Assembly: GCA_016188605.1 (NCBI GenBank)
Contig: JACPHP010000001.1
Span: 1,327 to 65,326 of the forward strand
Source of the DNA: Candidatus Spechtbacteria bacterium
Lineage (GTDB): Bacteria; Patescibacteriota; Minisyncoccia; Spechtbacterales; JACPHP01
Direction: 5' to 3'
DNA length: 64,000 bases
In this document: piece after piece, positions 596 through 62,991 of the stretch
Layout of the letters: every line of letters begins with the position of its first letter
Numbering within the stretch: the first letter of the stretch is position 1
Notes under the pieces: model-generated
What the model was told of the DNA's origin: nothing
Seen by the model: the letters and a program-made list of their open reading frames with translations, nothing else
Database searches by the model: none
Position numbers and translations under genes: made by a program

Positions 596-647
596 AGAGA
601 TACGGAAATAAGGGTTAAAAAACCCTTTTTGGGTCGTCGCTCGCTAG

Positions 648-672
648 GAAGAGAAAGCTTGCTTTCTCTTCT
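648..672. repeat. perfect 10-bp stem hairpin gaagagaaag-cttg-ctttctcttc, flanked by direct repeat gctcgctag
   Basis: Seen directly in the sequence. Function unknown: possible terminator or recombination site. Confidence 0.5.
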
Positions 673-795
673 CTTGCTCGCTAGACAATAATTATAATTA
701 AAAATGAAACGGATAATATCCGTTGTTTTTATCGCTATATTAAAGCGATATGTTTGTTAATGAACAAATTCTATTTCAATAGTTATCAATATAAC

Positions 796-950
796 ATCTC
801 AAATCTCAAATGTTAAATCGCAAAACTAAAACTCAAATCTCTCAGCCAAGGGCTGATCCGCCTCCGGCGGAAAAACTTTTAATCTGACAGAGAGGAGATT
901 GTAGATTTAAGATGCAGATTTAAGATTTGCCATTTGAGATTTGAGATAAA
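796..950. repeat. palindromic heptamer array (aaatctc / gagattt arms) enclosing a REP-like twin-hairpin element
   Basis: Left arm has tandem caaatct-type 7-mers and the right arm has the reverse-complement 7-mers. The same organisation recurs at 58914..59068. Confidence 0.7.
842..875 (+). mobile_element. REP-like twin-hairpin element copy R1 (tCAGCC-aag-GGCTGa-tCCGCC-tcc-GGCGGaaaaa)
   Basis: Two adjacent GC-rich mini-hairpins in AT-rich spacer. Family has about 10 copies in the window. Confidence 0.7.
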
Positions 951-1009
951 AACAATCAAATTTATAGTCTTATTAAAATCTAAGATCTCATACTTAGAAT
1001 TAATACTAT

Positions 1010-2062
1010 TTATTTCTCATTCTGTGCCGCGGATGAAATTACGTCAAGCATTTCATCTAAATCACCATCGAGAATTGCGGTGATGTTGTGCCAATTTTCG
1101 TTAATACGATGATCCGTAACGCGATCTTGAGGAATATTGTATGTGCGAATTTTTTCACTTCGCTCGCCGCTGCCTATTTGAGAACGGCGCGCCTCTCCGC
1201 GCGCTTTTTCTTCTTTTTCACGCTGTTCTTGTAATATGCGGCTACGCAAAATTGTTAGCGCGATCTCTTTGTTTTCCGCTTGCGAGCGTCCGGCTTGCGA
1301 AGCAACGACCGTACCGGTGGGAATGTGGGTTACCCTTACAGCCGAAGATGTTTTATTTACATATTGTCCGCCAGGCCCAGACGCGCGAAAAACGTCTATC
1401 TGTAATTCGTCTTGGCGGATTTGAATATCGATCGGTTTTGCTTTTGGCAAAATTGCCACGGATGCCGTGGATGTATGCACGCGACCCGCTTTTTCTGTTT
1501 CCGGAATACGCTGTACACGATGTACGCCGCTTTCATATTCTAGGCGCGAAAAAGCGCCCTTGCCATGTATTTCACAAACCGCTTCTTTAATGCCGCCAAT
1601 TTCCGTTCTGCTTGAATCTAGAATGGTAAATTTCCAATTTTTGCGTTCGGCATATCGTGTGTACATACGCAGAAGGTTTTGCGCGAACAAGGCCGCCTCA
1701 TCACCACCGACACCAGCTCGTATTTCCATAATCAAATCGTCATATTCTTTATCAGATGTTGTGGGATTAACGAATTCTGTTAGCTGTTTCTCAATGTCAG
1801 CCATTTTTTGTTTATCTTCCCGCGCTGTTTCTGTGGCGAGTTGCGCCATCTCCGGATCGGTTTCTTTCTGAGCCATTTCCTCGTGTTCTTTTATCATTTC
1901 CTCAAGCTCATTGATTTGTTCCTGGAAGGAGACGATCTGCTCTACAAAAGAGTACCTTTTGGACGCTTCTCGCAGTTCTTGGCTAGACGAAAAAGCTCTC
2001 GGGTTGCTTAGTTTACCCGCGAGCTCATCCCGTTCTTTTTTTAGTTCGGAAGTATCATGCAT
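1010..2062 (-). CDS. prfA: peptide chain release factor 1
   Basis: 350 aa. GGQ motif (SGPGGQYVNKT) and the RF1-type tripeptide region RVQRIPETEKAGRVHTS (PxT-type, not the SPF of RF2). Confidence 0.9.
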   Translation of the reverse strand: MHDTSELKKERDELAGKLSNPRAFSSSQELREASKRYSFVEQIVSFQEQINELEEMIKEHEEMAQKETDPEMAQLATETAREDKQKMADIEKQLTEFVNPTTSDKEYDDLIMEIRAGVGGDEAALFAQNLLRMYTRYAERKNWKFTILDSSRTEIGGIKEAVCEIHGKGAFSRLEYESGVHRVQRIPETEKAGRVHTSTASVAILPKAKPIDIQIRQDELQIDVFRASGPGGQYVNKTSSAVRVTHIPTGTVVASQAGRSQAENKEIALTILRSRILQEQREKEEKARGEARRSQIGSGERSEKIRTYNIPQDRVTDHRINENWHNITAILDGDLDEMLDVISSAAQNEK

Positions 2063-2097: not shown

Positions 2098-2177
2098 ATC
2101 AACGAATAACGAATCTGTTACGAATAAACGAATTGACCAGCATTCGTAATTTAGCGCGGGATTCGCTATTCGTTGAT
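2098..2177. mobile_element. MITE family A copy 1 (TIR ATCAACGAATAACGAAT ... ATTCGCTATTCGTTGAT)
   Basis: 17-bp terminal inverted repeats seen directly, with internal cgaata 7-mer sub-repeats. Fills the prfA-rpmE spacer. Confidence 0.75.
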
Positions 2178-3220: not shown

Positions 3221-3332
3221 TTCCATTGTTTCATTGCTCTATCGTTACATTGTTACATTGTTTCATTGTTGCATGGTTTCATGGTTACATAAACAATGAA
3301 ACAATGGAGCAATGAAGGGTCAATGGGAGCGG
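3221..3332. repeat. palindromic heptamer array (cattgtt / aacaatg arms)
   Basis: ccattgtttcattgctc...cattgttacattgtttcattgttgc ... acaatgaaacaatggagcaatgaag. Inverted arms seen directly. Confidence 0.65.
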
Positions 3333-4440: not shown

Positions 4441-4498
4441 AATAGTGAAGACAGAATCATGAATCATGAATACTGCACCTCACTATTCATAATTCATC
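4441..4498. repeat. interleaved inverted repeats (aatagtga/tcactatt and gaatcatgaatcatgaata/tattcataattcat) in the rpsB-tsf spacer
   Basis: Seen directly. Heptamer gaatcat units. Confidence 0.65.
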
Positions 4499-5098: not shown

Positions 5099-5195
5099 GA
5101 ATAGTGAATCACGAATCATGAATTATGAATTATGAATCACGTCAGTTAGCATTTATGATTCACAATTCATGATCCCATATTCATTTTTTATTCAT
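5099..5195. repeat. palindromic heptamer array (gaatcat/gaattat units) related to 4441..4498
   Basis: aatagtgaatcacgaatcatgaattatgaattatgaatcac ... atttatgattcacaattcatgatcccatattcat. Confidence 0.65.
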
Positions 5196-10002: not shown

Positions 10003-10037
10003 AGCTCCCTTTTTCCGCCAGAGGCGGATCAGCCTTT
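10003..10037 (-). mobile_element. REP-like element copy R3 inserted in the anticodon loop of a tRNA-Lys fragment
   Basis: ttttCCGCCagagGCGGatCAGCCtttGGCTGaaa. Confidence 0.7.
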
Positions 10038-10152
10038 GGCTGAAAGGAGATGGTCGCAGGTCCGAAGGATCAGCCTTTGGCTGAAAGGAGATGGTCGCAG
10101 GTCCGAATCCTGCTGGGTGCACAAAACACTTAACTATGTAGAGCAGCTCCCT

Positions 10153-15630: not shown

Positions 15631-15795
15631 AAAATTTTGAATTTTTAATTTCGAATTTTGAATAAATTTTGAATGACTGAAATTAGAAGAATTATCATCT
15701 TTATCATCAAAAAGTTATATATTAGCGCTAGATAGCACGTGTTTCAAAATTAAATAATTCTAATTTTATTCAAAATTCAAAATTCTAAATTAAAT
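15631..15795. repeat. palindromic heptamer array (ttttgaa / ttcaaaa arms)
   Basis: aaaattttgaatttttaatttcgaattttgaataaattttgaat ... attcaaaattcaaaattctaaatt. Confidence 0.65.
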
Positions 15796-17767: not shown

Positions 17768-17890
17768 ACAAATTTCAAATACTAAATATCAAATCAATGT
17801 CAAAAACTTAATGCCAAAAACTATATTGTAGTTTTAAGTTTTTGTCCTTCGGCATTCATTTAACATTTGAAATTTGGATTTTGAAATTTA
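17768..17890. repeat. palindromic heptamer array (caaat / atttg units)
   Basis: aaatttcaaatactaaatatcaaatcaatgtcaaaaac ... catttaacatttgaaatttggattttgaaattt. Confidence 0.6.
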
Positions 17891-21279: not shown

Positions 21280-21458
21280 AATTTCAAAATCCAAATGTCA
21301 AATTACAAATCAATTTCAAATACTAAATGTCAAATGCTAAAATTTTAGGTTTTGAATATTTGAGACTTTTCCGCCTGAGGCGCCTGTCCGCCTCTGGCGG
21401 GGATCAGCCTATGGCCGAGACATTGATTTGACATTTGTAATTTGGACTTTGTAATTTA
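21280..21458. repeat. palindromic heptamer array (caaatgt/acatttg units) enclosing a long-variant REP-like element
   Basis: aaatgtcaaattacaaatcaatttcaaatactaaatgtcaaatg ... cattgatttgacatttgtaatttggactttgtaattt. Confidence 0.65.
21367..21418 (-). mobile_element. REP-like element, long variant (R6) with two CCGCC hairpins plus CAGCC/GGCC hairpin
   Basis: ttttccgcctgaggcgcctgtccgcctctggcggggatcagcctatggccgaga. Its reverse complement matches the 45196..45246 copy. Confidence 0.65.
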
Positions 21459-21464: not shown

Positions 21465-23027
21465 ATGTCCTCTCGCATTTTCTCCCCTCTAAACATAATC
21501 TATATCCTCTCGCTGGTAACTCTGTTCGCGGCTGTCTTTGGCGTTGTGCCTCGGGAGTTTATTTTTATTCCAGCAGTCCTTATTCTGGGATATATGCTTG
21601 TCGCGCCGCATCAAAACGGCTTACTTTTGTTTGTTAGATTTATTCCATTTTTCTTTGCCCTGCCGCTCACGCAAGGATTTGATAATTTTAATCTCTGGCG
21701 TATTGCCATAATTTTGCTTTTCGCGAAATGGATTTTAAGCGGCAGAAATCTCGATGAAATTGTAGCTTCATTGCAATGGAATAATTTGCGCAATCTGTGG
21801 AACAGCGCGCGGGCAGAAGTTCTTGGCAGCGCATTGTTTGCGCTAGCTTTCATCTCGTTGTTTGTTGCGCAGGATATATCCACTGGTGTTAAAAGGATTA
21901 TTTATTTTGCTAACCTAACTCTTTTGTTTGTAATAGTGCGCGGTTTGGTGCGGCGCGAAAATGGATACGTGCAAAAACTGACGAATAATTTTGTAGTATC
22001 AGGGATGGTGGCTGTGGTTGTTGGATTTGGCCAGTGGATAAGCACATATTTTTTACCCGTCTGGATTTTTCATTATTGGTGGGGGCAGATCGTGTCTTTG
22101 AATATGTATGGACAACAATGGGCGAATATAGTAACAAATTTTGGCAACACGTGGTTTAGTTATTCGGGCGGTGGGCTGCGCCTGCGTATGTTTTCTTTAT
22201 TTCCCGACTCGCATACATTTCCGTTATACTTGCTCATGGTTTTGCCGTTTTTGTTTTTGTTCATATACGATGCAAAACGAACGCTCACAAAATGGGAACG
22301 CCGGCTGGCATGGTTTGGATTTTTGGCATTGCACCTCGCGCTTATTTTAAGTGGTACCAGAGGAATATGGGCGGGTATTATTTTTCCGGCAGTGGCACTT
22401 GGTACAGCGTGGTTTTTCATGCCGTATACGCGCGTATACGGAAAAAAAGTTGCTTTATCTATAGGGGCATTTATTTTGATGTTCCCTTTCGCGTGGGCGA
22501 TATTGATGCTGCCGCAATTTCAAGACGACAATGTGCCGTCGCATAATGTTTTCTTTACTAGGATTGGTTCTTTGATAGATACTTCTGAAACTTCAAACCA
22601 AGGCCGCATCGCTATTTGGAGAAGCACGCTGAAATCAATAGCGCATAATCCAGCGCTTGGTATAGGCATAGGGAATTATCCCGTGGTTTTAGATCAAAAT
22701 ATATCGGCAACAAGAATGGGCGCATCCGCGCATAATCTATATTTACAGGTTGCCTCGGAAATGGGCATTCCAGCTGCTATAATATTTATATGGTTCTTGT
22801 GGGAGGTGTTTGCTCGCGCGTGGCGGTTTGCTCAAAAACCGTCGTATAATACGTTAACGGGCCTTTTTGCTTTCGCAATCATTTTTTCATTTATTTGGAT
22901 TTTGGGTTACAGCCTAACTGATGCGGCGCTGTTTGACGAGCGGGCATTTTTGGGTTTCTTGGTGTTTATAGGCGTGTTACTTGGGATAACGAGGCAAAAT
23001 GAAATAAAAAATCCCAAACCCCAATGA
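21465..23027 (+). CDS. O-antigen ligase / Wzy-like polytopic membrane protein
   Basis: 520 aa, more than 10 TM helices with a large periplasmic-type loop. Its last codons and TGA stop lie inside the heptamer array at 23009..23130. Confidence 0.55.
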   Translation: MSSRIFSPLNIIYILSLVTLFAAVFGVVPREFIFIPAVLILGYMLVAPHQNGLLLFVRFIPFFFALPLTQGFDNFNLWRIAIILLFAKWILSGRNLDEIVASLQWNNLRNLWNSARAEVLGSALFALAFISLFVAQDISTGVKRIIYFANLTLLFVIVRGLVRRENGYVQKLTNNFVVSGMVAVVVGFGQWISTYFLPVWIFHYWWGQIVSLNMYGQQWANIVTNFGNTWFSYSGGGLRLRMFSLFPDSHTFPLYLLMVLPFLFLFIYDAKRTLTKWERRLAWFGFLALHLALILSGTRGIWAGIIFPAVALGTAWFFMPYTRVYGKKVALSIGAFILMFPFAWAILMLPQFQDDNVPSHNVFFTRIGSLIDTSETSNQGRIAIWRSTLKSIAHNPALGIGIGNYPVVLDQNISATRMGASAHNLYLQVASEMGIPAAIIFIWFLWEVFARAWRFAQKPSYNTLTGLFAFAIIFSFIWILGYSLTDAALFDERAFLGFLVFIGVLLGITRQNEIKNPKPQ

Positions 23028-23130
23028 CCAATGACCAATCAAATCCCAATGCCTAAAATCCCAAGACCTAACTTTAATCATTTGGATTTGGGGCTTGATT
23101 GGTCATTTGGATTTGGTCATTGGGATTTTT
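23009..23130. repeat. palindromic heptamer array (aatccca/tgggatt arms)
   Basis: aaaatcccaaaccccaatgaccaatgaccaatcaaatcccaatgcctaaaatcccaag ... tggatttggggcttgattggtcatttggatttggtcattgggatttt. Confidence 0.7.
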
Positions 23131-24177: not shown

Positions 24178-24250
24178 ATCAACGAATAACGTACGAATAT
24201 ATGAATCGGCCGTAGTGGAGTATTCGTATATTCGTACGTTATTCGTTGAT
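24178..24250. mobile_element. MITE family A copy 2
   Basis: atcaacgaataacg ... cgttattcgttgat. Fills the spacer between the GT2 stop (24165) and the LCP start (24259). Confidence 0.75.
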
Positions 24251-27127: not shown

Positions 27128-27160
27128 ATTCTATACATTAATTTTCAAGCACCAATTTTC

Positions 27161-27192
27161 TCAGCCAAAGGCTGATCCGCCTTCGGCGGAAA
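27161..27192 (+). mobile_element. REP-like element copy R7
   Basis: tCAGCCaaaGGCTGatCCGCCttcGGCGGaaattt. Confidence 0.7.
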
Positions 27193-27265
27193 TTTATCTC
27201 GCTTCGCGAGATCTAGCATAGCCAGACAATGAATTTACAATGACTCAATTACTAATCGTGTGTTT

Positions 27266-27300
27266 TCAGCCATAGGCTGATCCGCCTCAGGCGGAGAAAA
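27266..27300 (+). mobile_element. REP-like element copy R8
   Basis: tCAGCCataGGCTGatCCGCCtcaGGCGGagaaaa. Confidence 0.7.
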
Positions 27301-27459
27301 TTAGGGCATTGAGTTATTGCGTAAAGCAACGTGGGGCGTAAAACCCTCCGTGGAGGGCCACGCCCTCTTTACGGAGTTGCCACGCAACTCTACGTTGATT
27401 GAAAATTGTAAATTGATCATTGAAAATTCTTTCGGCATTTTTGATTTTAATTATATTAT

Positions 27460-29193: not shown

Positions 29194-29272
29194 CGAATCC
29201 ATTACGAATTTACGAATATCCTACTATCTATAGCTGATTCGTTTATTCGGATAGGATTCGTTATTCGTTGAT
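29182..29272. mobile_element. MITE family A copy 3
   Basis: atcaacgaataacgaat...attcgttattcgttgat. Overlaps the pyrG stop and abuts the rpmA stop. Confidence 0.8.
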
Positions 29273-29544: not shown

Positions 29545-29624
29545 AGTGTTAGATTAAATCAAATAATAAATTTTAGATTAGCCGAATCATTCAACATATA
29601 AATGACTATTTTGAAATTTTATTA

Positions 29625-32945: not shown

Positions 32946-33018
32946 ATCAACGAATAACGAATCCCTACGAATAAACGAATTAAAAATAAGAAGTAGATAG
33001 TATTCGTTATTCGTTGAT
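32946..33018. mobile_element. MITE family A copy 4
   Basis: atcaacgaataacgaat...attcgttattcgttgat. Confidence 0.75.
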
Positions 33019-34667: not shown

Positions 34668-36245
34668 TCAGAGGAGGCTTTTTGCATACGCTAATCGAGC
34701 AAGCGTTTTTTCTTTACCCAGAATACTAGCTACTTCAAACGGGCCAGGTGATGCTTTTTGACCAGTTAAGGCAACGCGCAAAGGCCATAATATAGTGCCT
34801 TTATCCCCCTTTGCCGAAGCATAAGGCATTAAAACGTCTTCCAGAGATTTTGCGGTCTGAAATATTTTATTATCTAACGACATGATAAAGTTTTCTAATT
34901 CAGACAGCGTTTTGGTAATAGTTATTTTGTCGGTATTTTTCCAAACAAGCAGGGATTCATCGTAAGAGGGACTATCTGTAAAGAAAAATCCTGCTCTCTC
35001 CCCTATTTCCGCGAGGCGCTTTAACCGTTCTTGCTCCAGAGCAATAATTTTTTTTAGCCATTCAAAATTAACTATCTCGCCGGTTTTAATAATTTTGAAT
35101 TTCAAACCGTCATTTTGCTTGTCTCGCGAAGCATAGGCGGAGTGAGGAGATTTGCGATTTGCGATTTGCGATTCCTCGATGTATCCCGCATAAACCAAAA
35201 ATGGTACACAACGCTGGGTTAATTCGCCTATCTCCATGTTACGTATGTACATGCCATTCATCCAATCCAATTTTTCGAGATTAAAAATAGCTCCGCTCTG
35301 CTGAATATTGTCGCCGTCAAATCGTTCGATAAGCTCCTTCATTGTCATTATTTCTTTATCATCATTGGCGTTCCAGCCAAGGATAGCAAGAAAGTTTATA
35401 AATGCTTCGGGCAGATATCCCATTTTTTCATATTCAAGAACAGAAACCGCGCCGTGGCGCTTGCTAAGCTTTGATCGATCTGTACCGAGTAGCAACGGCA
35501 AGTGAGCGTACTTAGGCGATTGCAATTTAAGCGCGCGTTGGATCAGAATTTGTTTCGGGGTATTTGAGATATGATCTTCGCCGCGAATAACATGCGTAAT
35601 TTCCATGTCGCTGTCGTCAATTACAGCCGCAAAATTATATAACGGCAAATCAAGCGACTTTGCGAGTGAAAAATCTCCCAGCAAATCAGCATTAAATTCT
35701 ATCTCTCCTCGTACATGATCATAAAATTTTACGCTGCCTCCAGGATTCTGAAAACGTATGATAGATTTTTCTTTATTAGTATCAGTAACATCGATTGCAG
35801 CAAATTTGCGATAATCACATATATGCATTGGCGGTTGCTTTTGCGCCTCTTGTTGCGCGCGTTCTTTTTCAAGCTCTGCTTGTGTATGCCAGCAATAAAA
35901 AGCATCGCCTTGTTCTAATAATTGATTTAAATACTGTTTATGAATTTTTAGGCGTTCGCTTTGACGATATGGGCCATGGAGGCCGCCAACATCGGGCCCT
36001 TCGTCCCAATCCATGCCTAGCAATTTAAGCCCCTTGAGGATATTTTCTTCATATTCTTTTTTGGAACGTTCGGTATCAGTATCCTCAATGCGTACTATAA
36101 ATACTCCCCCATGGTGACGAGCAAAAAGGTAGTTAAATAATGCGGTGCGAGCCGTGCCGACGTGCAGCATTCCCGTTGGGCTTGGAGCTATGCGGACGCG
36201 AACGGTTTGGTCAGGGGTTACGAATTGTTCTTTAGTGGTATTCAT
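34668..36245 (-). CDS. gltX: glutamyl-tRNA synthetase
   Basis: HIGH-type motif SPTGMLHVGTAR and KMSKS-type KLSKRHG. Confidence 0.85.
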   Translation of the reverse strand: MNTTKEQFVTPDQTVRVRIAPSPTGMLHVGTARTALFNYLFARHHGGVFIVRIEDTDTERSKKEYEENILKGLKLLGMDWDEGPDVGGLHGPYRQSERLKIHKQYLNQLLEQGDAFYCWHTQAELEKERAQQEAQKQPPMHICDYRKFAAIDVTDTNKEKSIIRFQNPGGSVKFYDHVRGEIEFNADLLGDFSLAKSLDLPLYNFAAVIDDSDMEITHVIRGEDHISNTPKQILIQRALKLQSPKYAHLPLLLGTDRSKLSKRHGAVSVLEYEKMGYLPEAFINFLAILGWNANDDKEIMTMKELIERFDGDNIQQSGAIFNLEKLDWMNGMYIRNMEIGELTQRCVPFLVYAGYIEESQIANRKSPHSAYASRDKQNDGLKFKIIKTGEIVNFEWLKKIIALEQERLKRLAEIGERAGFFFTDSPSYDESLLVWKNTDKITITKTLSELENFIMSLDNKIFQTAKSLEDVLMPYASAKGDKGTILWPLRVALTGQKASPGPFEVASILGKEKTLARLAYAKSLL

Positions 36246-36252: not shown

Positions 36253-36339
36253 ATTAGCGAATAACGAATGGCATAAGAATATACGAATACTCCACTACAG
36301 CCAATTCGTTTATTCGTAAAAAATTCGTTATTCGTTGAT
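36253..36339. mobile_element. MITE family A copy 5
   Basis: attagcgaataacgaat ... attcgttattcgttgat. The right TIR supplies the last codons of murG (...L-I-N-E-stop). Confidence 0.8.
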
Positions 36340-37497: not shown

Positions 37498-37584
37498 AAT
37501 CAGCGAATAACGAATAGTGTACGAATATACGAATACTCTACCAAATCGATTCGTTTATTCGTGTTGGATTCGTTATTCGTTGAT
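37498..37584. mobile_element. MITE family A copy 6
   Basis: aatcagcgaataacgaat ... attcgttattcgttgat. Confidence 0.75.
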
Positions 37585-37588: not shown

Positions 37589-38701
37589 TCAGTTATGCCG
37601 AGAAATCTGAAGTAGTAATCCGGAAGCCGCCAGTGTTGACACCATAGCCGAACCGCCATAACTAATAAATGGCAAAGGTATTCCCATCAAGGGCAAAACG
37701 CCTGTTATAGATCCGATGTTGATAAATGCCTGGATGCCAATCCAGGAAGTGATGCCGAGCGCTAACATGGAAGAAAATCTATCATTTGAGTCTCGCGCGA
37801 TTTTTAGTCCCCGCCAAATAAAAATTAAAAAAAGTAGTATGAGTGAAATAGCGCCAACAAATCCCGTCTCTTCGCTCCACACCGCAAAGATAGAGTCTCC
37901 CATTGGTTCTGGAAGAAAATTATGAGATTGCTGGCCTTGGGCTATTCCAACCCCCCAAAGTCCTCCCGAACCTTCCGCGAGCAACGCTTGATTAAGATGA
38001 TAGCTAATACCCATAGGATCGGTTTGAGGGTTAAGAAACGTAGATATTCTTTCTAGTCTGTACGGCGCAATTTGAATAAGAATAAATAATCCTATAACGC
38101 CCAGGACGCCCAGAAAAGCAAAATGCTGTATTTTTCCCCCAGCTACAATATACATAAATCCCGCGGTAAGACCAATTAAAATTAAAGTGCTAATATCGGG
38201 TTGAAGAAAGAGGAAAAAAGCCAACATGCCAACCAGGATCGTAAAGGGTACTAAACCAGTTCCAATATTTTGCACTTCATTTTTTTTTGATGCAAACCAT
38301 GCGGCAAGATATATTACAAATGTAAGTTTGGTAATTTCCGAGGGTTGCATTAGAAAAGACCCAATATGAATCCATCGCTGCGCGCCACCGGCTGCGTATG
38401 CAAACCCCGGAACAAAAATAAGTATAAGCAGAAATAGCGAGGTTAGATAGAATGGAAGCGCTAAACTATGCAATATTTTGTACGGTAAAAAATAAAATAT
38501 AAACCCGCCAATCAGTCCCAACCCCACTCCGTAAATCAATTGATGTTGCAAATATCCATATATGTTGCCAAAAACATACTGACTTTCGCCTCCTGACGCG
38601 GATGATAAAATAACAAGCCCGACACTAAACAGGGCTGCTATGGACATAAGCAAAATGAAATCTGGTTTTTTGAGCAGCAAATGTTTGTTCATGTGGAACA
38701 A
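37589..38701 (-). CDS. ftsW: SEDS family protein FtsW/RodA (TTG start)
   Basis: 10 TM. Conserved SEDS periplasmic loop (QRWIHIGSFLMQPSEITKL). Confidence 0.8.
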   Translation of the reverse strand: MFHMNKHLLLKKPDFILLMSIAALFSVGLVILSSASGGESQYVFGNIYGYLQHQLIYGVGLGLIGGFIFYFLPYKILHSLALPFYLTSLFLLILIFVPGFAYAAGGAQRWIHIGSFLMQPSEITKLTFVIYLAAWFASKKNEVQNIGTGLVPFTILVGMLAFFLFLQPDISTLILIGLTAGFMYIVAGGKIQHFAFLGVLGVIGLFILIQIAPYRLERISTFLNPQTDPMGISYHLNQALLAEGSGGLWGVGIAQGQQSHNFLPEPMGDSIFAVWSEETGFVGAISLILLFLIFIWRGLKIARDSNDRFSSMLALGITSWIGIQAFINIGSITGVLPLMGIPLPFISYGGSAMVSTLAASGLLLQISRHN

Positions 38702-38780
38702 TCAGCGAATAACGAATGGCGTACGAATATACGAATACTCCACTACCGCTAATTCGTTTATTCGTAAAAAATTCGTTGAT
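38700..38780. mobile_element. MITE family A copy 7 (right TIR shortened)
   Basis: aatcagcgaataacgaat ... aattcgttgat. Confidence 0.7.
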
Positions 38781-40354: not shown

Positions 40355-40468
40355 ATCTAAAATCTCAAATGGCAAATCTTAAATCTACATCGCAAATCTT
40401 AAAGCTTCAGTCGTAATTTTTAGATTTAAGTTTTAGTTTTGCGATTTGCGATTGGAGTTTTGACATTT
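40355..40468. repeat. palindromic heptamer array (caaatct / agatttg arms)
   Basis: aaaatctcaaatggcaaatcttaaatctacatcgcaaatcttaaag ... tagatttaagttttagttttgcgatttgcgattggagttttgacattt. Confidence 0.7.
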
Positions 40469-42368: not shown

Positions 42369-42455
42369 ATCAACGAATAACGAATCCTTTACGAATAAAC
42401 GAATTGGCTGTAGCGGAGTATTCGTATATTCGTACGCTATTCGTTATTCGTTGAT
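42369..42455. mobile_element. MITE family A copy 8
   Basis: atcaacgaataacgaat ... attcgttattcgttgat. The right TIR supplies ...I-I-N-E-stop of the ATP-grasp gene. Confidence 0.8.
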
Positions 42456-45099: not shown

Positions 45100-45295
45100 T
45101 CAAAATTTTCAATGGTTATGTTTTCAGCCATAGCAAGAAATACAAAAAAATGTATTTCTACGTTTAACAAAAATTACAACAAAATGTAATTTTACGCTAA
45201 GGCTGATCCCCGCCAGAGGCGGGCAGGCGTCTCAGGCGGAGAAAATTTAGTAATTGTAAATTTATTGAAAATTGTTAAATTGAAAATTGATCATT
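45100..45295. repeat. spacer filled with heptamer repeats (ttgaaaattg units) and a long-variant REP-like element
   Basis: ttcaaaattttcaatgg...gtaattgtaaatttattgaaaattgttaaattgaaaattgatcat. The same ttgaaaattg motif follows R8 at 27400..27455. Confidence 0.6.
45196..45246 (+). mobile_element. REP-like element long variant copy R9
   Basis: gctaaggctgatccccgccagaggcgggcaggcgtctcaggcggagaaaattt, the reverse complement of the 21367 copy. Confidence 0.65.
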
Positions 45296-57777: not shown

Positions 57778-58908
57778 CTATAACCCTCGTTTTATACGGC
57801 GCAAGCTTTCCAGTGCCCAGTTTGGCCAATAACGCCAGGAAATCGGTAAATCTTGCGCGTGGAGATAATCTGTTTGGTAGCCTCCGAATCCTTTTTTGAA
57901 CAACGTTAAGCCAGCCCATGGGTGCTTAGGATTTTCGCTGGTTGTGATGCCCCAAAAGTTATATAGCTTCTTGTTTCTTCTCTTTGCTTCTTTAATTGCC
58001 GCCCACTGCACTGCGTAGGCAGTCGGGATATTTGAATACCTAAGCGATGACGCGCCGTGGTGGTAGAAAGCGCTGTTTCCGTAAAAAATAATCACCGCGC
58101 TTGCTTGAGGTTCACCCTGAGCATTGCCGAAGGGCTCGCCCTTATACCAAGCGGAGATCACCTCCGCTTGTCCTTCCGTAGTCCTTCCGTAGCATTGTAG
58201 CGTAGGAGGGCGAAGGAGGACACTTTCATTTTTCGAGAACGCATCAACCTCGCATTGAATATATTCTCGTGAAAATGGAATAAAGTCGTGCTTAGCAACT
58301 GTTTCTTTGTGTAATTTATAAAAATGGTCAATATCTTCCTTGCTGGCGCCGATTGTAATCTCTACGCCTTCTCTTTCCGCGCGGCGGATGAGGTTTCGCG
58401 TGGTTTTGCGCATGCCCTTTAGCAATTCTTCCTCGCTAGGCGATAAATCAAGTGTCCAAGTAGTTTCCGCGTGCATGTGAATTGGCGCGGGGCGAAAACC
58501 CAAATCAGCAAAAAGCTGGCGATTTTCTTCAGTAGCTATCATTGGCGGGCTGACGCGAATAAAATACGCTTTTTCTTGTTGTGCAATCTTTTTTAACTCC
58601 GATGTAAGGGTTTTTAAGATTTCAAATTTTGAATTTTCATTTTGAGATTTGAGATTTGAGATTTGAGATTGAAATATCGGCCCGTGTGGTATAAAAAGAA
58701 ACCTTCCGCGTCTCGCCTCTACCAAAATTACAAGTATCACTGATACGAGTTCTCCATTTTCCTCAACACCAAAACGCCACATCTTATCCCCCATTCGCAC
58801 GTTAAACTCGCCCCACTGCCATGAATGCAGGAAAGTATGGTCGGGCTGGGAAGTGACGAAACTATCCCATTTTTCCTTGTCTGTTATTTGGATGATTTGT
58901 GGAGACAT
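57778..58908 (-). CDS. FemAB/FemX-family aminoacyl-tRNA-dependent peptidyltransferase-like protein
   Basis: HSWQWGEF N-terminal motif and tandem GNAT-like halves, about 376 aa. Confidence 0.65.
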   Translation of the reverse strand: MSPQIIQITDKEKWDSFVTSQPDHTFLHSWQWGEFNVRMGDKMWRFGVEENGELVSVILVILVEARRGRFLFIPHGPIFQSQISNLKSQNENSKFEILKTLTSELKKIAQQEKAYFIRVSPPMIATEENRQLFADLGFRPAPIHMHAETTWTLDLSPSEEELLKGMRKTTRNLIRRAEREGVEITIGASKEDIDHFYKLHKETVAKHDFIPFSREYIQCEVDAFSKNESVLLRPPTLQCYGRTTEGQAEVISAWYKGEPFGNAQGEPQASAVIIFYGNSAFYHHGASSLRYSNIPTAYAVQWAAIKEAKRRNKKLYNFWGITTSENPKHPWAGLTLFKKGFGGYQTDYLHAQDLPISWRYWPNWALESLRRIKRGL

Positions 58909-58913: not shown

Positions 58914-59068
58914 TATCTCAAAACGCAAATCTCAAATGTCAAAACTGAAACTTAAATCTCAAAACTACTACGGAGATACTTTTAATTTTTCCGCCAGAGG
59001 CGGATCAGCCTCAGGCTGAAGATTTAAGATTTTGATTTGAGTTTTACGATTTGAAATTTGAGATAAAA
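58914..59068. repeat. palindromic heptamer array (caaatct / agatttg arms) enclosing REP-like element R10
   Basis: Same organisation as 796..950. Confidence 0.7.
58987..59020 (-). mobile_element. REP-like element copy R10
   Basis: ttttCCGCCagagGCGGatCAGCCtcaGGCTGaa. Confidence 0.7.
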
Positions 59069-59082
59069 ATAGTTTACTACTG

Positions 59083-60373: not shown

Positions 60374-60439
60374 GAATACAGAATACAGAATTGAGAATAC
60401 AGGTCCTGTATTCCGTATTCTTGATTCTGTATTCTGTTT
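60374..60439. repeat. perfect-ish palindrome of gaataca heptamers
   Basis: ttgaatacagaatacagaattgagaatacaggtcctgtattccgtattcttgattctgtattctgtt. Confidence 0.7.
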
Positions 60440-60441
60440 AG

Positions 60442-62073
60442 TTAGTCATCTATAATCAAATTTCTCACAATCGTTTCCGGTACGCGATTCTCTAACAATA
60501 TAACGTCTCCTTCGTCGCATAATTCTTGGGCTTTGCGCATTGCTATATATGGATCTGGTATGCACCACAAGGCATTTTTACTCATGCCGGCTTTAATAGC
60601 TTCGTCTTTTATGTATTCGTAGAAATCTGGCGCCGTAACAATGCACTGATCGCAGGTCTCCGCGATTTTTGCTCCTATCGCGCGATGCGCGTCTTCCGCA
60701 GCACGACCAAGTTCAATCAAGGGATATATTATGCATATTTTTTTGCGGCCCTCTGATTCTTTTAGAATATCGAGCGCCGCAAACACTCCATCTGTGTTAG
60801 CTGAATAACTATCATCAATTATTGTAGTATGCTTGATACCTCGACGGAAATGAATTGCGTGCGGAGGCGTTTCAAGTGTTTTGCAGGCCTCGGCAATCTC
60901 TTTGTAGCTCATGCCAAGTCCGTGCGCTGCGCAAATAGCGCCGACAACATTCGTACCGTTATGCGCGCCGCTTAATGGCACCTCAATGGCGATTTTCTTT
61001 TTCTTGTCCCGTATTTCCACTGTCATCCTATCTTTGCCTTGGTGAATTTTCTGCGCAAAAATTGCAGCAGATGCGAGGCCTTCAGGTAAATTGGTCGCGT
61101 ACAGACGTTTTGGTTTTTTGCAATTATCGTAGAGAGCGCGCGTGTACTGGTTGTCGCCGTTAAATATCGCGAGCCCTTTTTCTGGCAGTGATTCAATTAG
61201 TTCGTATTTTGCGCGCTGAATATTACGAAACGAACCAAAGAGCGACAAGTGCTGTTGGTTGATGCCGGTTAAAATACCGATTTGCGGCTTCACCATCGCG
61301 CAAATGTCGCGTATTTCTCCTCGCTTGTAAGCTCCCATCTCAACGATGAATATTTCATGCTCTTGCCTAAGATTTTTTATAATATGGCTTGCGATGCCAA
61401 TCTCTGTATTGGTATTTTCCGGCGTTTTTAATACATTAAAATTATTTTCCAAAATATGCGAAAGAAATTCTTTCATGCTGGTCTTGCCGAAGCTTCCCGT
61501 AATGCCAATGACGAGCAAGTCTGGAGTAGATGCTAACTTTGTCTTGGCCCGAGCAACTATTTTTCGCTTCATGTAAAGCGATAATGGCCGAGCAGTACCC
61601 ACAAAAGCTGTTGCAATAGCTGGAACCATTAAATCTGTAAAAAACAGAAGCGATAACGCGCTTGGAAGCGGCGACAACAGCCCAGCGATAACCATTACGA
61701 GCGCCGAGCTAAAAGTTAGACCAAGCAGAGACACGGCCTTTTTGGTAAATGTAGGCATACGAAGGCGATGGTCTTGATATGCTTCATACATGCGGTATGC
61801 CTGAAAACCATATAAGCCAATCCCGGCTAAAAGCATTACATAAGAGAAGAAAGATGCTAGCAATCCAAGCGCGGAAAACAAGAACAGCACTCCCACTGCC
61901 AGGGTTTTATAACTTAACAAAAGTTTTTTCGCGCTTGGTAGCTCGAAGTGAGCGCGCATGCGATCAAGCCGATATTCTTTTAATTGCCAAAGATATATCC
62001 AAAACAGCGCGTCTTTTACCACGCTTGTGATCCAAAGTATTCCGAAAATAAATAATAGGATTATTTCTACCAT
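60442..62073 (-). CDS. murF: Mur ligase (MurF-like, UDP-MurNAc-pentapeptide synthetase) fused to an N-terminal about 190-aa polytopic membrane domain
   Basis: 4-5 TM helices, then LLVIGITGSFGKTS...IVEMGAYKRGEI...GAHNGTNVVGA. A cytoplasmic Mur ligase fused to TM helices is unusual. Confidence 0.7.
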   Translation of the reverse strand: MVEIILLFIFGILWITSVVKDALFWIYLWQLKEYRLDRMRAHFELPSAKKLLLSYKTLAVGVLFLFSALGLLASFFSYVMLLAGIGLYGFQAYRMYEAYQDHRLRMPTFTKKAVSLLGLTFSSALVMVIAGLLSPLPSALSLLFFTDLMVPAIATAFVGTARPLSLYMKRKIVARAKTKLASTPDLLVIGITGSFGKTSMKEFLSHILENNFNVLKTPENTNTEIGIASHIIKNLRQEHEIFIVEMGAYKRGEIRDICAMVKPQIGILTGINQQHLSLFGSFRNIQRAKYELIESLPEKGLAIFNGDNQYTRALYDNCKKPKRLYATNLPEGLASAAIFAQKIHQGKDRMTVEIRDKKKKIAIEVPLSGAHNGTNVVGAICAAHGLGMSYKEIAEACKTLETPPHAIHFRRGIKHTTIIDDSYSANTDGVFAALDILKESEGRKKICIIYPLIELGRAAEDAHRAIGAKIAETCDQCIVTAPDFYEYIKDEAIKAGMSKNALWCIPDPYIAMRKAQELCDEGDVILLENRVPETIVRNLIIDD

Positions 62074-62089
62074 ATTAAATATAAATACT

Positions 62090-62212
62090 AATCAAAACAA
62101 TCTCAAATCGCAAAACTCAAATCGCAAATCTGCAACTCAAATCTTAAATCTACTGCGAAGATTTTAGATTTGAGATTCAGTTTTGAGATTTGCCATTTGA
62201 GATTTGAGATTA
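62090..62212. repeat. palindromic heptamer array (caaatc / gatttg arms); encodes the C-terminal about 18 aa (NNNLKSQMANLKTESQI) of the downstream hydrolase
   Basis: aatcaaaacaatctcaaatcgcaaaactcaaatcgcaaatctgcaactcaaatcttaaatc ... agatttgagattcagttttgagatttgccatttgagatttgagatt. Confidence 0.7.
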
Positions 62213-62991
62213 TTATTTTTATGTTGTGCTATAAACTCCGCCATTGTTTGAGCCATTTCATGTGGCACCTCCAGGTTTATCGCGTGCCCTCTCTCGGGAA
62301 ATACGTGCAGGCGTGAATCTGCAACTTCTTTTTGAATGATATACGCGTCGGCAAGCGGTGTTGCTCTATCGTTTTCTCCCCATAAAATTAGCGTAGGTAA
62401 GGTAATATGCCTCACGTATTTGCGCAAATTTTCGTTAATAACTTTTTTAAATGTTTCGCGCATGACGCCGTCTGTCTTGTAGTAATCTCGTTCCAGGGTA
62501 AATTTGTACCAGAGATTACGAACTATGGGTTTTAGGAAATGAAGCGGCGGCACGGCAAAAATAACATTGCCGATTTTTGTTGTTATCAGAAACATGCGCG
62601 TACGTACCGTGTGTCGACGCACTACTCCTGCCGCATCGCATAAAATGAGGGTGGAAACATTTTCTCCGTGCTTTGCGCCATAGATTATGGCAATTCTTCC
62701 GCCAAACGAATGTCCTACAAGAGTGAAATCTTGCAGGCCAAGCGACTGGATGAACTCGTATACAAACTCCGTGTATTGATAAATATCCCAAGGTTCTGAC
62801 GGTGGAGGCGTTTCGCCAAATCCAGGCATATCAGGAACTATCGCTCTGAAGCCGCGTTCTGCTAAATCATTTTGCACGGCGCGCCAGTTGTTAGCGCGAG
62901 ATCCCCATCCGTGAAGAATAACAATTACGGCTCCCGTGCCCAGGTCGCGGTAGAAGACGGGAATACCTTGAATGGTGATGTTTTTATCCAT
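62164..62991 (-). CDS. alpha/beta hydrolase fold protein; its C-terminal tail is encoded by the heptamer array
   Basis: GHSFGG nucleophile elbow and HGWGS oxyanion region. The last about 18 codons lie inside 62164..62212. Confidence 0.75.
   Translation of the reverse strand: MDKNITIQGIPVFYRDLGTGAVIVILHGWGSRANNWRAVQNDLAERGFRAIVPDMPGFGETPPPSEPWDIYQYTEFVYEFIQSLGLQDFTLVGHSFGGRIAIIYGAKHGENVSTLILCDAAGVVRRHTVRTRMFLITTKIGNVIFAVPPLHFLKPIVRNLWYKFTLERDYYKTDGVMRETFKKVINENLRKYVRHITLPTLILWGENDRATPLADAYIIQKEVADSRLHVFPERGHAINLEVPHEMAQTMAEFIAQHKNNNLKSQMANLKTESQI

What the first reader, a model, noticed from the sequence alone, without database searches (positions are those of the whole stretch)
600..62300. 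Genome-wide family of palindromic intergenic elements built from tandem 7-bp units with a shared AAT core
At least 20 intergenic spacers (796-950, 3221-3332, 4441-4498, 5099-5195, 15631-15795, 17768-17890, 21280-21458, 23009-23130, 27400-27455, 29625-29740, 30849-30970, 40355-40468, 45100-45295, 58914-59068, 60374-60439, 62090-62212, plus the MITE-A copies) share one architecture. Each has a left arm of 3-8 tandem heptamers and a right arm of the reverse-complement heptamers around a short centre. The heptamer differs between loci (aatctca, gaatcat, gaattat, cgaataa, gaataca, cattgtt, aatccca, ttgaaat, caaatgt) but nearly always contains AAT/ATT. Strict 7-nt periodicity and locus-specific sequence with conserved architecture are not typical of REPs, CRISPRs or ordinary terminators. 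The pattern suggests either a diversifying MITE superfamily or arrays of binding sites for a protein with a 7-bp register. In 62090-62212 and 23009-23130 the arrays read into gene 3' ends and encode protein tails.
Basis: seen in the sequence. Interest (0 to 1): 0.85.

Follow-up and report, generated by a model that had tools for sequence, protein, structure and literature searches.

The report
Palindromic short-repeat elements filling gene junctions
The spaces between genes in this tiny uncultured bacterium are packed with small hairpin-forming DNA elements built from repeated ~7-base units, which look like parasitic mobile DNA, and one family turns out to be the stripped-down form of an element that carries an uncharacterised nuclease gene (GxxExxY).

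Summary
Intergenic DNA has a strong period-7 signal (lag-7 identity 0.335 against 0.269 in shuffles, z=12; coding 0.255). 23 of 36 spacers of at least 40 nt hold a palindrome with arms 72-97% complementary.

The host is a Candidatus Spechtbacteria MAG (CPR/Patescibacteria), not a cyanobacterium.

- A: heptamer-array palindromes, including five alignable ATCTCAA-type copies plus unique ones.
- B: an ~85-nt palindrome with four CGAAT motifs per arm, 8 copies.
- C: a GC-rich twin mini-hairpin nested in the loops of some palindromes.

Syntenic relatives have the same genes abutting or overlapping and no period-7 signal, so the elements are lineage-specific insertions.

Family B occurs in more than 50 metagenome contigs. 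13 of 13 sampled genes of one GxxExxY (PD-(D/E)XK nuclease) clade sit between the same two B arms, so B is a gene-less MITE-like derivative. A second GxxExxY clade (Bacteroidota, Caldithrix) is flanked by its own ~8-nt AATC-core repeats.

There is no RNA-strand asymmetry and no U-tract, so terminator function is unsupported.

The closest known things are cyanobacterial STRR hairpins, Xanthomonas GGGAATC inverted pairs, MITEs/REPINs and Elhai's SDRs. I rate this a new variant of a known kind. The nuclease link is the valuable part.

The parts
796..947 (.). Family A palindrome (ATCTCAA-type heptamer arms) with the GC-rich twin hairpin (C element, 834-873) nested in its loop. It lies downstream of a PCRF/RF-1-domain peptide chain release factor gene, in a convergent spacer.
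   Evidence: (z -5.4/-6.8)
2098..2177 (.). Family B palindrome (ATCAACGAATAACGAAT ... ATTCGCTATTCGTTGAT).
3221..3332 (.). Palindrome built from 8-nt units (CATTGTTN), in a divergent spacer.
   Evidence: z -6.7; I24
4441..4498 (.). Short GAATCAT array with a weak hairpin, between rpsB and tsf.
   Evidence: z -2.8/-3.9
5099..5195 (.). TGAATCA-type heptamer palindrome that reaches the ATG of the next gene.
   Evidence: I16
15631..15795 (.). AATTTTG/ATTCAAA heptamer palindrome with 52-nt arms, 79% complementary.
   Evidence: I3
17768..17890 (.). CAAATNT heptamer palindrome in a divergent spacer. It is the same family as 21280.
   Evidence: D15; I19
21280..21458 (.). CAAATGT-type heptamer palindrome with degenerate GC-rich C-like hairpins in its centre.
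   Evidence: z -6.8/-9.3; I12
23009..23130 (.). AATCCCA/CCAATGA heptamer palindrome. It supplies the last ~6 codons and the stop codon of the Wzy_C gene. The next gene starts 7 nt after it.
   Evidence: I6
24178..24250 (.). Family B palindrome (arms 97% complementary), 8 nt before an ATG.
   Evidence: (I18)
27398..27428 (.). Single ATTGAAA array with no partner arm. It is not a hairpin.
   Evidence: z +0.5
29182..29272 (.). Family B palindrome.
   Evidence: (I13)
29624..29736 (.). Family A palindrome.
30849..30970 (.). AAAACAC-type heptamer palindrome with 59-nt arms, 78% complementary.
   Evidence: I2
32946..33018 (.). Family B palindrome.
35149..35173 (.). Unpaired GATTTGC x3.6 array lying in frame inside the gltX coding region.
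36253..36339 (.). Family B palindrome that fills the whole stop-to-start spacer.
   Evidence: I17
37499..37584 (.). Family B palindrome.
   Evidence: I14
38701..38777 (.). Family B copy with a truncated right end.
40355..40466 (.). Family A palindrome between the MraY-like gene and the amidohydrolase gene. These genes are 6 nt apart in relative L006 (a racemase gene lies between them in L004).
42369..42455 (.). Family B palindrome.
   Evidence: (I15)
45100..45295 (.). Composite element with ATTGAAA-type arms, internal hairpins and degenerate C-like hairpins. Its right end overlaps the last codons of the murC-like gene.
   Evidence: (z -6.5)
58641..58670 (.). TTTGAGA x4.3 array in frame inside FemAB. 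It encodes QSQISNLKSQ in a loop that varies among homologues.
58915..59064 (.). Family A palindrome with a C element (58982-59021) in its loop, between DegT and FemAB. These genes overlap or sit 13 to about 370 nt apart in relatives, none of which has a period-7 array at this junction.
60374..60439 (.). GAATACA heptamer hairpin starting 3 nt after the Mur ligase stop codon. Mur ligase and DegT overlap by 4 nt in relatives.
   Evidence: (z -8.6)
62100..62210 (.). Family A palindrome between the abhydrolase and Mur ligase genes. Its arm encodes about 15 residues of the abhydrolase's 18-aa C-terminal tail and the stop codon.
   Evidence: (z -8.2)
27153..27297 (.). Two stand-alone copies of the GC-rich twin hairpin (C element), TCAGCCnnnGGCTGATCCGCCnnnGGCGGA.
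   Evidence: D7; I10
10006..10045 (.). C element (opposite orientation) beside the duplicated 3' part of tRNA-Lys.

Best explanation
**What they are.** These are non-coding, palindromic, dispersed repeat elements (MITE/REPIN-like selfish DNA). They have colonised the junctions between genes in this Candidatus Spechtbacteria lineage.

**Anatomy.** Each arm is an iterated short unit.
- The unit may be a degenerate heptamer (family A, ATCTCAA, and several rarer units).
- It may instead be a fixed layout of four CGAAT motifs spaced 7, ~11 and 8 nt apart (family B).

**Shown**
- The elements are insertions relative to syntenic relatives.
- Copies descend from common ancestors.
- Family B is the gene-less form of a small element that carries a GxxExxY PD-(D/E)XK nuclease gene between the same two arms.
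- That gene-bearing element is widespread in Patescibacteria metagenomes.

**Inferred**
- The iterated unit is the binding or recognition site of the element's nuclease, or of a partner protein.
- The nuclease promotes spread, either by homing-like double-strand-break repair or by cutting the extruded hairpin or cruciform.
- Slipped-strand mispairing expands, contracts and diversifies the arrays. This yields locus-specific heptamers on a conserved architecture.
- The heptamer families other than B arose in the same way.

**Consequences for the host (shown)**
- Formerly overlapping genes are pushed 90-174 nt apart.
- New C-terminal tails and in-frame peptide inserts arise.
- Long hairpins lie 5-12 nt from start codons.

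A second, unrelated small element, the GC-rich twin hairpin C, has inserted into some of the loops.
For: **Insertion**
- Relatives L002, L004 and L006 keep the order abhydrolase, Mur ligase, DegT, FemAB ... MraY-like, amidohydrolase, MurD. At the abhydrolase-Mur ligase, Mur ligase-DegT and amidohydrolase-MurD junctions their genes overlap or lie at most 18 nt apart; DegT-FemAB and MraY-like-amidohydrolase are tight in some relatives only.
- They show no lag-7 signal and no intergenic period-7 arrays.
- In the window the same junctions hold the elements.

**Common descent**
- Five family A copies align end to end with sharp borders.
- In-register arm similarity is 29.7, against 18.6 +/- 1.1 when heptamer order is shuffled.
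- An independent Logan assembly breaks inside two family A copies.

**Family B**
- The terminal 17-mer gives 15 matches in the window, against 0.05 expected.
- There are more than 120 metagenome loci, with 58 further full elements.
- Whole-element identity to the window copies is 77-80%.
- 83 of 130 arms carry four exact CGAAT motifs at fixed spacing. The spacers between motifs are not complementary between arms.

**Nuclease link**
- 10 GxxExxY genes lie in the B-bearing loci. None was found in 2.1 Mb of other fetched loci.
- 3 more genes, chosen only by protein homology, are all bracketed by B arms.
- They match PF13366 and TIGR04256.
- D74, E84 and K86 are invariant.
- The AF2 model has pLDDT 93 and a restriction-endonuclease-like fold.
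- A second clade (Bacteroidota, Caldithrix) is flanked by ~8-nt AATC-core repeats. Inverted-flank alignment scores are 26, 25 and 20, against shuffle maxima of 17, 16 and 20.
- B-unit heptamers also form long plain arrays and an inverted heptamer palindrome (L287).
Against: - No GxxExxY gene, and no transposase of any kind, lies in the 64-kb window.
- No target-site duplication is visible at family A or family B borders.
- No protein partner was found for family A or for the unique heptamer elements.
- IMG/VR and GTDB loci rich in heptamer arrays hold no GxxExxY gene within a few kb.
- The two arms of a family A copy match each other no better than arms of different copies do (23.9 against 29.5). 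Recent palindrome formation or arm conversion is therefore not seen.
- No empty-versus-filled site polymorphism between close strains could be examined. The nearest relatives share only ~50% protein identity.
- Nuclease activity, binding to the repeats and mobility are all untested.
Confidence: 0.6

Rival explanations
1. The arrays are generated locally and are host-functional RNA hairpins, as has been proposed for STRR. On this view each array arose in place by replication slippage. It is kept because its hairpin terminates transcription, stabilises the upstream mRNA, or separates genes that are translated without Shine-Dalgarno sequences.
For: - The elements sit exactly between stop and start codons, and most fold strongly.
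- Only 5 of 44 genes have an SD-like motif, and many have a TATAAT-like box just before the ATG. Genes may therefore need their own promoters and terminators.
- Ends of family A give -35-like TTGAGA hexamers 17 nt from a -10-like box upstream of the Mur ligase gene.
- The literature proposes stability or terminator roles for STRR hairpins (PMC2670836).
Against: - On the sense strand there are 14 G.U-type and 13 A.C-type mismatches, plus 82 mismatches that break pairing on both strands.
- The sense strand is not the more stable one in most elements.
- No U-tract follows the stems.
- The elements also occur in divergent spacers.
- Copies share the order of variant heptamers.
- Family B is conserved across unrelated genomes and is tied to a nuclease gene.
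- Relatives manage without these elements.
Confidence: 0.2
2. The arrays are binding sites for a host chromosomal protein, such as a global regulator or a nucleoid-associated protein, that reads a ~7-bp register with an AAT core. They would then be operators, not mobile DNA.
For: - In family B the motif (CGAAT) and its spacing are conserved, not the base pairing.
- The AAT/ATT core is in 12 of 14 units, p=0.009.
- Family B ends lie a median of 9 nt from start codons.
Against: - Units differ from locus to locus, so there is no common site.
- The elements precede unrelated housekeeping genes in many genomes.
- They are absent from relatives that have the same genes.
- The only protein that co-occurs consistently is encoded inside the element.
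Confidence: 0.12
3. The repeats are an assembly or binning artefact of a metagenome-assembled genome.
For: The source is a MAG. Repeats break short-read assemblies.
Against: - An independent Logan assembly is 100% identical over 3158 nt, including the GAATACA hairpin and parts of two family A copies.
- Homologous elements occur in many independent metagenomes.
- Open reading frames read through the arrays consistently.
Confidence: 0.02

Closest known systems
STRR (short tandemly repeated repetitive sequences) of filamentous cyanobacteria
   Same: - Tandem ~7-bp units lie in intergenic DNA.
- They can fold into hairpins between genes, e.g. hupS-hupL and upstream of hoxW (PMC2670836).
- They are also found inside an RNA gene (Vioque 1997, cited in PMC4046671).
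- Their function is unknown.
   Different: - The host here is a CPR bacterium with no HIP1 enrichment.
- Here the arrays come mostly as inverted pairs, with many different units and multi-copy families.
- Here there is a link to a nuclease-bearing parent element.
- From memory, one classical STRR unit (TTGGTCA) resembles the unit at 23021-23039 and 23099-23128. I did not test that resemblance.
GGGAATC heptamer repeats of Xanthomonas
   Same: - Heptamer arrays are mostly intergenic and close to gene ends.
- 70-75 cases per genome are two arrays in convergent (inverted) orientation that can form stem-loops (PMC4692102).
   Different: - Xanthomonas has one G-rich unit with G-quadruplex potential.
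- Those repeats are conserved at orthologous sites between species.
- No multi-unit diversity and no gene-bearing relative have been reported there.
MITEs and REPINs (e.g. Correia, Nezha, REP doublets)
   Same: - They are small, non-coding, have terminal inverted repeats, are multi-copy, lie in intergenic DNA and insert into one another (PMC10969869, PMC3116915).
- As in REPINs, left and right arms are interchangeable versions of one sequence.
   Different: - Here the arms are internally iterated short units.
- No target-site duplication is seen.
- The gene-bearing relative of family B encodes a 130-aa PD-(D/E)XK nuclease, not a DDE or HUH (RAYT) transposase.
Small dispersed repeats (SDR) of Nostoc (Elhai et al. 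2008, Genome Res; paper not held, described here from memory and from its citation in PMC3116915)
   Same: These are very small (~20-30 nt) hairpin-forming elements that insert into other repeats, including tandem heptamer arrays. The GC-rich twin hairpin (C) here behaves the same way.
   Different: - The C sequence is found across many phyla of uncultured bacteria.
- Identity with any SDR family could not be checked.
Rickettsia palindromic elements (RPE)
   Same: Palindromic repeats that are tolerated inside coding regions and add peptide segments (listed in PMC10969869; the details are from my own knowledge).
   Different: Here most copies are intergenic. Coding overlap is limited to C-terminal tails and two short in-frame arrays.

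Membership tests
STRR (cyanobacterial) | Tandem heptanucleotide units in intergenic DNA, able to form hairpins | tested here: met
STRR (cyanobacterial) | Occurs in (heterocyst-forming or filamentous) cyanobacteria | tested here: not met
   - The host is a Candidatus Spechtbacteria MAG.
- Gene content is CPR-like.
- HIP1 occurs once in 64 kb.
MITE | Short non-coding element with terminal inverted repeats, in many dispersed copies | tested here: met
   - Family A: 5 copies. Family B: 8 copies in 64 kb.
- Family B occurs in more than 50 other contigs.
MITE | Target-site duplication flanking each copy | tested here: not met
   No shared or duplicated flank is visible at family A borders or family B borders.
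MITE | A longer autonomous element with the same ends that encodes the transposase | tested here: inconclusive
   Gene-bearing units with B arms exist in 13 of 13 sampled cases. However, the gene is a GxxExxY PD-(D/E)XK nuclease whose role in mobility is untested. None lies in the window.
REP/REPIN | Inverted doublets of one short repeat, with interchangeable arms | tested here: met
   Left arms match the reverse complements of right arms of other copies as well as they match other left arms.
REP/REPIN | An associated RAYT (HUH tyrosine transposase) gene, and each REP being itself a 20-40 nt GC-rich imperfect palindrome | tested here: not met
   - No such Pfam family was found among the window ORFs.
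- The arms are AT-rich tandem arrays, not palindromes.
Intrinsic (Rho-independent) terminator | GC-rich stem followed by a U-tract on the transcribed strand | tested here: not met
   - Stems are AT-rich.
- Apart from one site on the non-coding (+) strand inside 60374-60439, no terminator-like site lies in an element in 44001-64000.
- The sequence after the stems lacks T-runs.
- There is no strand asymmetry.
CRISPR array | Direct repeats of 24-48 nt separated by unique spacers of similar length | tested here: not met
   Units are 7-8 nt, contiguous, and arranged as inverted arms.
Known RNA families (Rfam 15) | Match to a curated covariance model | tested here: not met
   - Only two tRNAs reach the gathering score.
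- Nothing meaningful appears at E <= 10 around the C elements.
Homing-endonuclease-type selfish gene (for the GxxExxY unit) | Nuclease cleaves the empty allele and the element is copied in by repair | not testable with these tools
   Only the fold and the catalytic motif are shown.

The most novel reading that the evidence does not exclude
GxxExxY proteins form a very large, uncharacterised PD-(D/E)XK family. More than 8000 homologues were found in one capped search. The novel reading is that they are the nucleases of a previously unrecognised class of small mobile elements.

- The ends of these elements are inverted arrays of iterated short (7-8 nt) AAT/AATC-core units.
- Each nuclease clade has its own unit.
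- The gene-less derivatives of these elements are the short-period palindromes seen here.
- By extension, they may also be the unexplained heptamer-repeat hairpins (STRR and the like) of cyanobacteria and other bacteria.
Probability: 0.3. Interest if true: 0.85.

Novelty: new variant of a known kind. Interest (0 to 1): 0.62.

Why it matters
CPR/Patescibacteria genomes are regarded as small and streamlined. Here about two thirds of the larger spacers are occupied by repeat elements. These elements have split formerly overlapping genes and rewritten protein ends, so selfish DNA can reshape even such genomes.

More broadly, heptamer-repeat hairpins have been known in bacteria since 1990 without an accepted origin or function. 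GxxExxY is a protein name applied by automated annotation to members of a very large family (thousands of homologues in public data) with no known role. The consistent bracketing of GxxExxY genes by iterated-unit arms links the two puzzles. The link makes both directly testable: does the nuclease bind or cut its own arms, and do nuclease clades and repeat units co-diversify?

The elements are also a practical cause of assembly breaks in CPR MAGs.

Tried and rejected
1. **Cyanobacterial origin (first hypothesis: classical STRR plus SDR).** Rejected. HIP1 occurs once in 64 kb, gene content is CPR-like, and NCBI names the source Candidatus Spechtbacteria.
2. **Searching GTDB genomes with the PriA-like protein.** It found no relative. 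The source genome and close relatives are not in that collection.
3. **RNA-level selection.** The comparison of sense and antisense folding energies and the G.U/A.C asymmetry test were both negative.
4. **Known RNA families.** None matched.
5. **Target-site duplications.** None is visible.
6. **A switch in translation-initiation mode as the explanation.** SD-like motifs occur in 11% of genes here and in 23-38% in relatives. That difference is too small to carry weight.
7. **C element inserts into tRNA genes.** Several flanks look tRNA-like, but removing C in silico restores an ARAGORN tRNA in only 1 of 138 cases.
8. **A gene bracketed by split halves of C.** No consistent case was found.
9. 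**GxxExxY relatives in IMG/VR.** None found.
10. **GxxExxY relatives in the PDB, by sequence.** None found.
11. **GxxExxY near heptamer-rich loci in general.** None was found in 2.1 Mb of loci that were not selected for B. The nuclease link is therefore demonstrated only for B and, less firmly, for a Bacteroidota-type clade.
12. **Cyanobacterial plasmids carrying GxxExxY, to test the STRR link.** There were no hits.
13. **The Elhai 2008 paper.** It could not be read.

Full report
**1. The observation**

TRF finds period-7 arrays at nearly every listed site. In each case the unit of the right array is the reverse complement of the left one.

I took the non-overlapping long ORFs as genes, which gives 89% coding. 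On that map:
- Intergenic DNA has lag-7 self-identity of 0.335 and lag-14 of 0.309. Neighbouring lags are about 0.29, and coding DNA gives 0.255.
- In 300 dinucleotide-preserving shuffles of the spacers, lag 7 is 0.269 +/- 0.0054. That gives z=12.2 for lag 7 and z=7.6 for lag 14.
- Of 28 merged period-7 arrays, 8 adjacent pairs are inverted and none is direct.
- Gapless inverted arms of 25-63 nt are 72-97% complementary.
- 12 of the 16 listed intervals fold with z of -4 or lower (down to -9.3) on at least one strand, 9 of them on both.
- 23 of 36 spacers of at least 40 nt hold such an element.

The exceptions are:
- 27400-27455 is a lone array.
- 29625-29740 and 4441-4498 fold weakly.
- 3221-3332 has an 8-nt unit.
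- The periodicity is degenerate rather than strict.
- The AAT/ATT core is in 12 of 14 distinct units, against 52% expected from composition (p=0.009). That is only modestly beyond chance.

**2. The organism**

I first took this for classical cyanobacterial STRR, but that is wrong taxonomically.
- HIP1 occurs once in 64 kb.
- The genes include a DUF5671 protein, a 195-aa EF-Ts, an AspRS without its insertion domain, FemAB, LytR_cpsA_psr and WecG.
- The Mur-ligase protein is recorded by NCBI as coming from a Candidatus Spechtbacteria MAG, on a 68-kb contig.
- The nearest homologues of that protein are only about 52% identical. No close relative is available.

**3. Three kinds of element, not one**

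*Family A.* Five copies align end to end with sharp borders, ATCTCAAA...TTTGAGAT. They lie at 796-947, 29624-29736, 40355-40466, 58915-59064 and 62100-62210.
- Their arms share the order of variant heptamers. The mean in-register score is 29.7, against 18.6 +/- 1.1 when heptamer order is shuffled.
- The two arms of one copy match no better (23.9) than arms of different copies do (29.5).
- The unit of descent is therefore an arm of about 50 nt used in either orientation, as in REP doublets.
- Other heptamer palindromes are single or double in the window: GAATACA, TGAATCA, AATTTTG, CAAATNT, AATCCCA/CCAATGA and AAAACAC.

*Family B.* Eight copies of an ~85-nt palindrome, ATCAACGAATAACGAAT...ATTCGTTATTCGTTGAT. 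The terminal 17-mer gives 15 matches at up to 2 mismatches, against 0.05 expected.

*Element C.* A GC-rich pair of 6-bp stem-loops, TCAGCCnnnGGCTGATCCGCCnnnGGCGGA.
- It is nested in the loops of the 796 and 58915 copies.
- It appears in degenerate form in the 21280 and 45100 elements.
- It also stands alone.

**4. The elements are insertions**

Three relatives were examined: L002 from soil, L004 from a Spechtbacterales MAG, and L006 from a 349-kb contig.
- They keep the gene order abhydrolase, Mur ligase, DegT, FemAB, (HisK), AspRS, peptidase S11, MraY-like, amidohydrolase, MurD.
- Their genes overlap by 4 nt or lie at most 18 nt apart at the abhydrolase-Mur ligase, Mur ligase-DegT and amidohydrolase-MurD junctions. 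The DegT-FemAB and MraY-like-amidohydrolase junctions are tight in some relatives only: L004 has an extra ORF (DegT-FemAB) or a racemase gene at them.
- They have no lag-7 excess and no intergenic period-7 arrays.

In the window the same junctions are 80-174 nt long, and each is filled by an element.

The insertions rewrote gene ends:
- The abhydrolase reads about 15 codons into the family A arm. Its 18-aa tail, KNNNLKSQMANLKTESQI, is absent from homologues.
- The Wzy_C protein ends inside the 23009 element.
- FemAB and gltX each carry a short heptamer array in frame.
- Downstream genes start 5-12 nt beyond the element.

An independent Logan assembly is identical over 3158 nt. It breaks inside two family A copies, as multi-copy repeats would cause.

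**5. No sign of an RNA-level function**

- Stems are AT-rich and no T-run follows them.
- The elements also lie in divergent spacers.
- The sense strand is not consistently the more stable one.
- Mismatches that would be G.U on the sense transcript number 14, against 13 A.C-type. A further 82 break pairing on both strands.
- Rfam gives only two tRNAs.

A terminator or stabiliser role is therefore not excluded, but nothing supports it. Weak promoter-like hexamers at family A ends and the scarcity of SD motifs (5 of 44 genes; 23-38% in relatives) leave room for co-option.

**6. Family B outside the window**

- 58 further full elements were extracted from about 50 contigs.
- Whole-element identity to the window copies is 77-80%.
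- Arms typically carry four exact CGAAT motifs (83 of 130 arms), spaced 7, 10-12 and 8 nt.
- The stretch between motifs 2 and 3 is not complementary between the two arms of one element (0.25, against 0.33 for unrelated pairs).

The conserved feature is thus a motif layout and not a perfect hairpin, which is what a protein-binding array looks like. The elements fit tightly into junctions. 53 sides abut a start codon at a median of 9 nt, and 29 abut a stop codon, mostly within 5 nt.

**7. The nuclease link**

I looked for B left and right arms without a nearby partner. This revealed units in which the arms bracket a gene.
- Four contigs hold homologous 130-aa proteins, 44-66% identical to one another.
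- The proteins match PF13366 (PDDEXK_3, E 1e-28 to 1e-32) and TIGR04256 (GxxExxY).
- A tblastn and HMM sweep of everything fetched (2.9 Mb) finds 10 such genes. All are in the B-bearing contigs. Each is followed directly by a B right arm, and most are preceded by a left arm. Three also carry a second cargo gene inside the same arms.
- Three more proteins were chosen only by homology and contig length (P0134, P0138, P0199). They sit between T4SS genes, between rpsO and pnp, and between htrA and clpB. All are bracketed by B arms.
- D74, E84 and K86 are invariant in two alignments.
- The AF2 model (pLDDT 93, pTM 0.86) matches Cas4, lambda-exonuclease-like enzymes, tRNA splicing endonuclease, an Hjc resolvase and a homing-endonuclease catalytic domain. 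All have restriction-endonuclease-like folds, at modest TM-scores.

Family B in the window is therefore best read as the gene-less, MITE-like form of a GxxExxY-bearing element.

**8. Does the link generalise?**

- A search starting from a Persicobacter GxxExxY returns at least 8000 homologues, the cap for that search.
- Four contexts from Caldithrix abyssi, Ancylomarina, a 5.5-Mb genome and a Crocinitomicaceae MAG show flanks built from ~8-nt AATCCTG/AATCAAG units plus a conserved GGTTCAGACA.
- Inverted-flank alignment scores are 26, 20 and 25, against shuffle maxima of 17, 20 and 16. One locus has a 107-nt direct flank repeat, and one is one-sided.
- Treponema, Fusobacteria and Persicobacter plasmid copies have, respectively, a 16-nt inverted flank, a 21-nt direct flank and AATCC-type arrays.
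- B-type CGAATAA units also occur as long plain heptamer arrays and as an inverted heptamer palindrome (L287).
- In the B-bearing contigs period 7 is the commonest tandem period: 220 arrays, with 13 inverted pairs against 1 direct, and with locus-specific units.
- In C-bearing GTDB loci period 7 is again the commonest: 142 arrays, with 8 inverted pairs against 1 direct.
- Some high-GC IMG/VR contigs have even denser inverted heptamer pairs.

Against generalisation, no GxxExxY gene lies near those heptamer-rich loci. No partner was found for family A.

**9. Comparison with what is known**

- Heptamer hairpins between genes are known as STRR in filamentous cyanobacteria, with proposed but unproven roles in transcript stability or termination (PMC2670836).
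- Heptamers are the most abundant long simple-sequence-repeat class in many prokaryotes, which has been attributed to polymerase slippage (Mrazek 2007, as summarised in PMC4679880 and PMC4692102).
- Xanthomonas has 70-75 convergent inverted pairs of GGGAATC arrays per genome (PMC4692102).
- MITEs and REPINs share the small size, inverted ends, copy number and nesting (PMC10969869, PMC3116915).
- Nested insertion of a tiny hairpin element into heptamer arrays recalls Elhai's SDRs. That comparison rests on my own knowledge because the paper is not held.

Membership tests:
- STRR fails on host.
- MITE fails on target-site duplication and is inconclusive on the autonomous partner.
- REPIN fails on RAYT and on arm structure.
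- Terminator and CRISPR both fail.

I found no description of such elements in CPR. Only three papers in the library even mention GxxExxY.

**10. Verdict**

The feature is real, dense and statistically solid. It is best explained as several families of selfish palindromic short-unit repeats inserted at gene junctions. It is a new variant of a known kind.

The most valuable result is the tie between one family and the uncharacterised GxxExxY nuclease family. That tie offers a testable mechanism for short-period palindromes in general.

My confidence in the main explanation is 0.6. I put the probability of the broad novel reading at about 0.3.

Noticed in passing
window 834-873, 27163-27192, 27268-27297, 10015-10044, 58990-59019; degenerate copies at 21365-21420, 45195-45250, 6904-6943; loci L128-L137, L140-L259: The 30-nt GC-rich twin hairpin TCAGCCnnnGGCTGATCCGCCnnnGGCGGA has fixed stems, variable loops, a T-run 5' and an A-run 3'. 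The loci span many Patescibacteria classes plus Ignavibacteria, Omnitrophota, Proteobacteria, Elusimicrobia, Verrucomicrobiota, Planctomycetia and Binatia MAGs. It often sits inside tandem heptamer arrays. No partner gene was found.
   Followed up: partly
window 9891-10161; L186: The 3' part of tRNA-Lys(UUU) and its downstream sequence are duplicated exactly (9943-10019 = 10085-10161). In the pseudo-copy a C element sits exactly in the anticodon loop (CTCCCTTTT|C|AAGGAG). The same arrangement is seen in a Giovannonibacteria contig (L186). However, removing C in silico restores a predicted tRNA in only 1 of 138 cases.
   Followed up: partly
window 9891-9913 and 9972-9994: A perfect 23-nt inverted repeat overlaps both ends of the intact tRNA-Lys gene. 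It extends the acceptor stem by about 16 bp (I23).
   Followed up: no
window 17339-17362, 28496-28519, 42630-42653, 63173-63196: A ~25-nt GC-rich repeat, CTTGCCCTGAGCnTnGTCGAAnGGG, lies inside four coding regions: the PriA-like gene, pyrG, an unknown ORF and tgt. These look like in-frame insertions of another small element (D17/D18, 108).
   Followed up: partly
window 14877-14918 and 63815-63886: A perfect 42-nt palindrome lies inside the fmt gene. A 26-nt, 96% inverted repeat lies inside the tgt gene (I25 and I20).
   Followed up: no
window, upstream of 44 genes: Only 5 of 44 genes have a Shine-Dalgarno-like motif. Many have a TATAAT-like box 5-10 nt before the ATG, which suggests leaderless mRNAs. 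Relatives have 23-38% SD-like motifs.
   Followed up: partly
window 15785-17749 (- strand): A PriA-like ORF of 654 aa matches only the N-terminal 3'DNA-binding domain and the C-terminal domain of PriA. No helicase-domain Pfam hit was found between them.
   Followed up: no
window 6360-8015: A 551-aa ORF with no Pfam or NCBIfam match lies in the most GC-rich part of the window (49% GC). It contains a degenerate C-like hairpin at 6904-6943.
   Followed up: no
window 57778-58908 (FemAB): Besides the heptamer-coded loop, this FemAB has two further insertions relative to three homologues, of 18 aa and 8 aa. They lie near short GC-rich tandem repeats at 58170-58219.
   Followed up: no
loci L015, L011 (IMG/VR, 58-60% GC): High-GC viral-classified contigs carry very dense inverted pairs of heptamer arrays with different units (AGTGGCT/CACTAGC, AATCCAA, ATTGACG). 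L015 has 6 pairs in 13.5 kb. The same architecture therefore exists in unrelated, unidentified hosts.
   Followed up: partly
loci L260, L332, L307: Some B-bracketed units carry a second cargo gene upstream of GxxExxY. It is an unknown 163-aa protein in two contigs (76% identical) and a glyoxalase/VOC-family protein in a third.
   Followed up: partly
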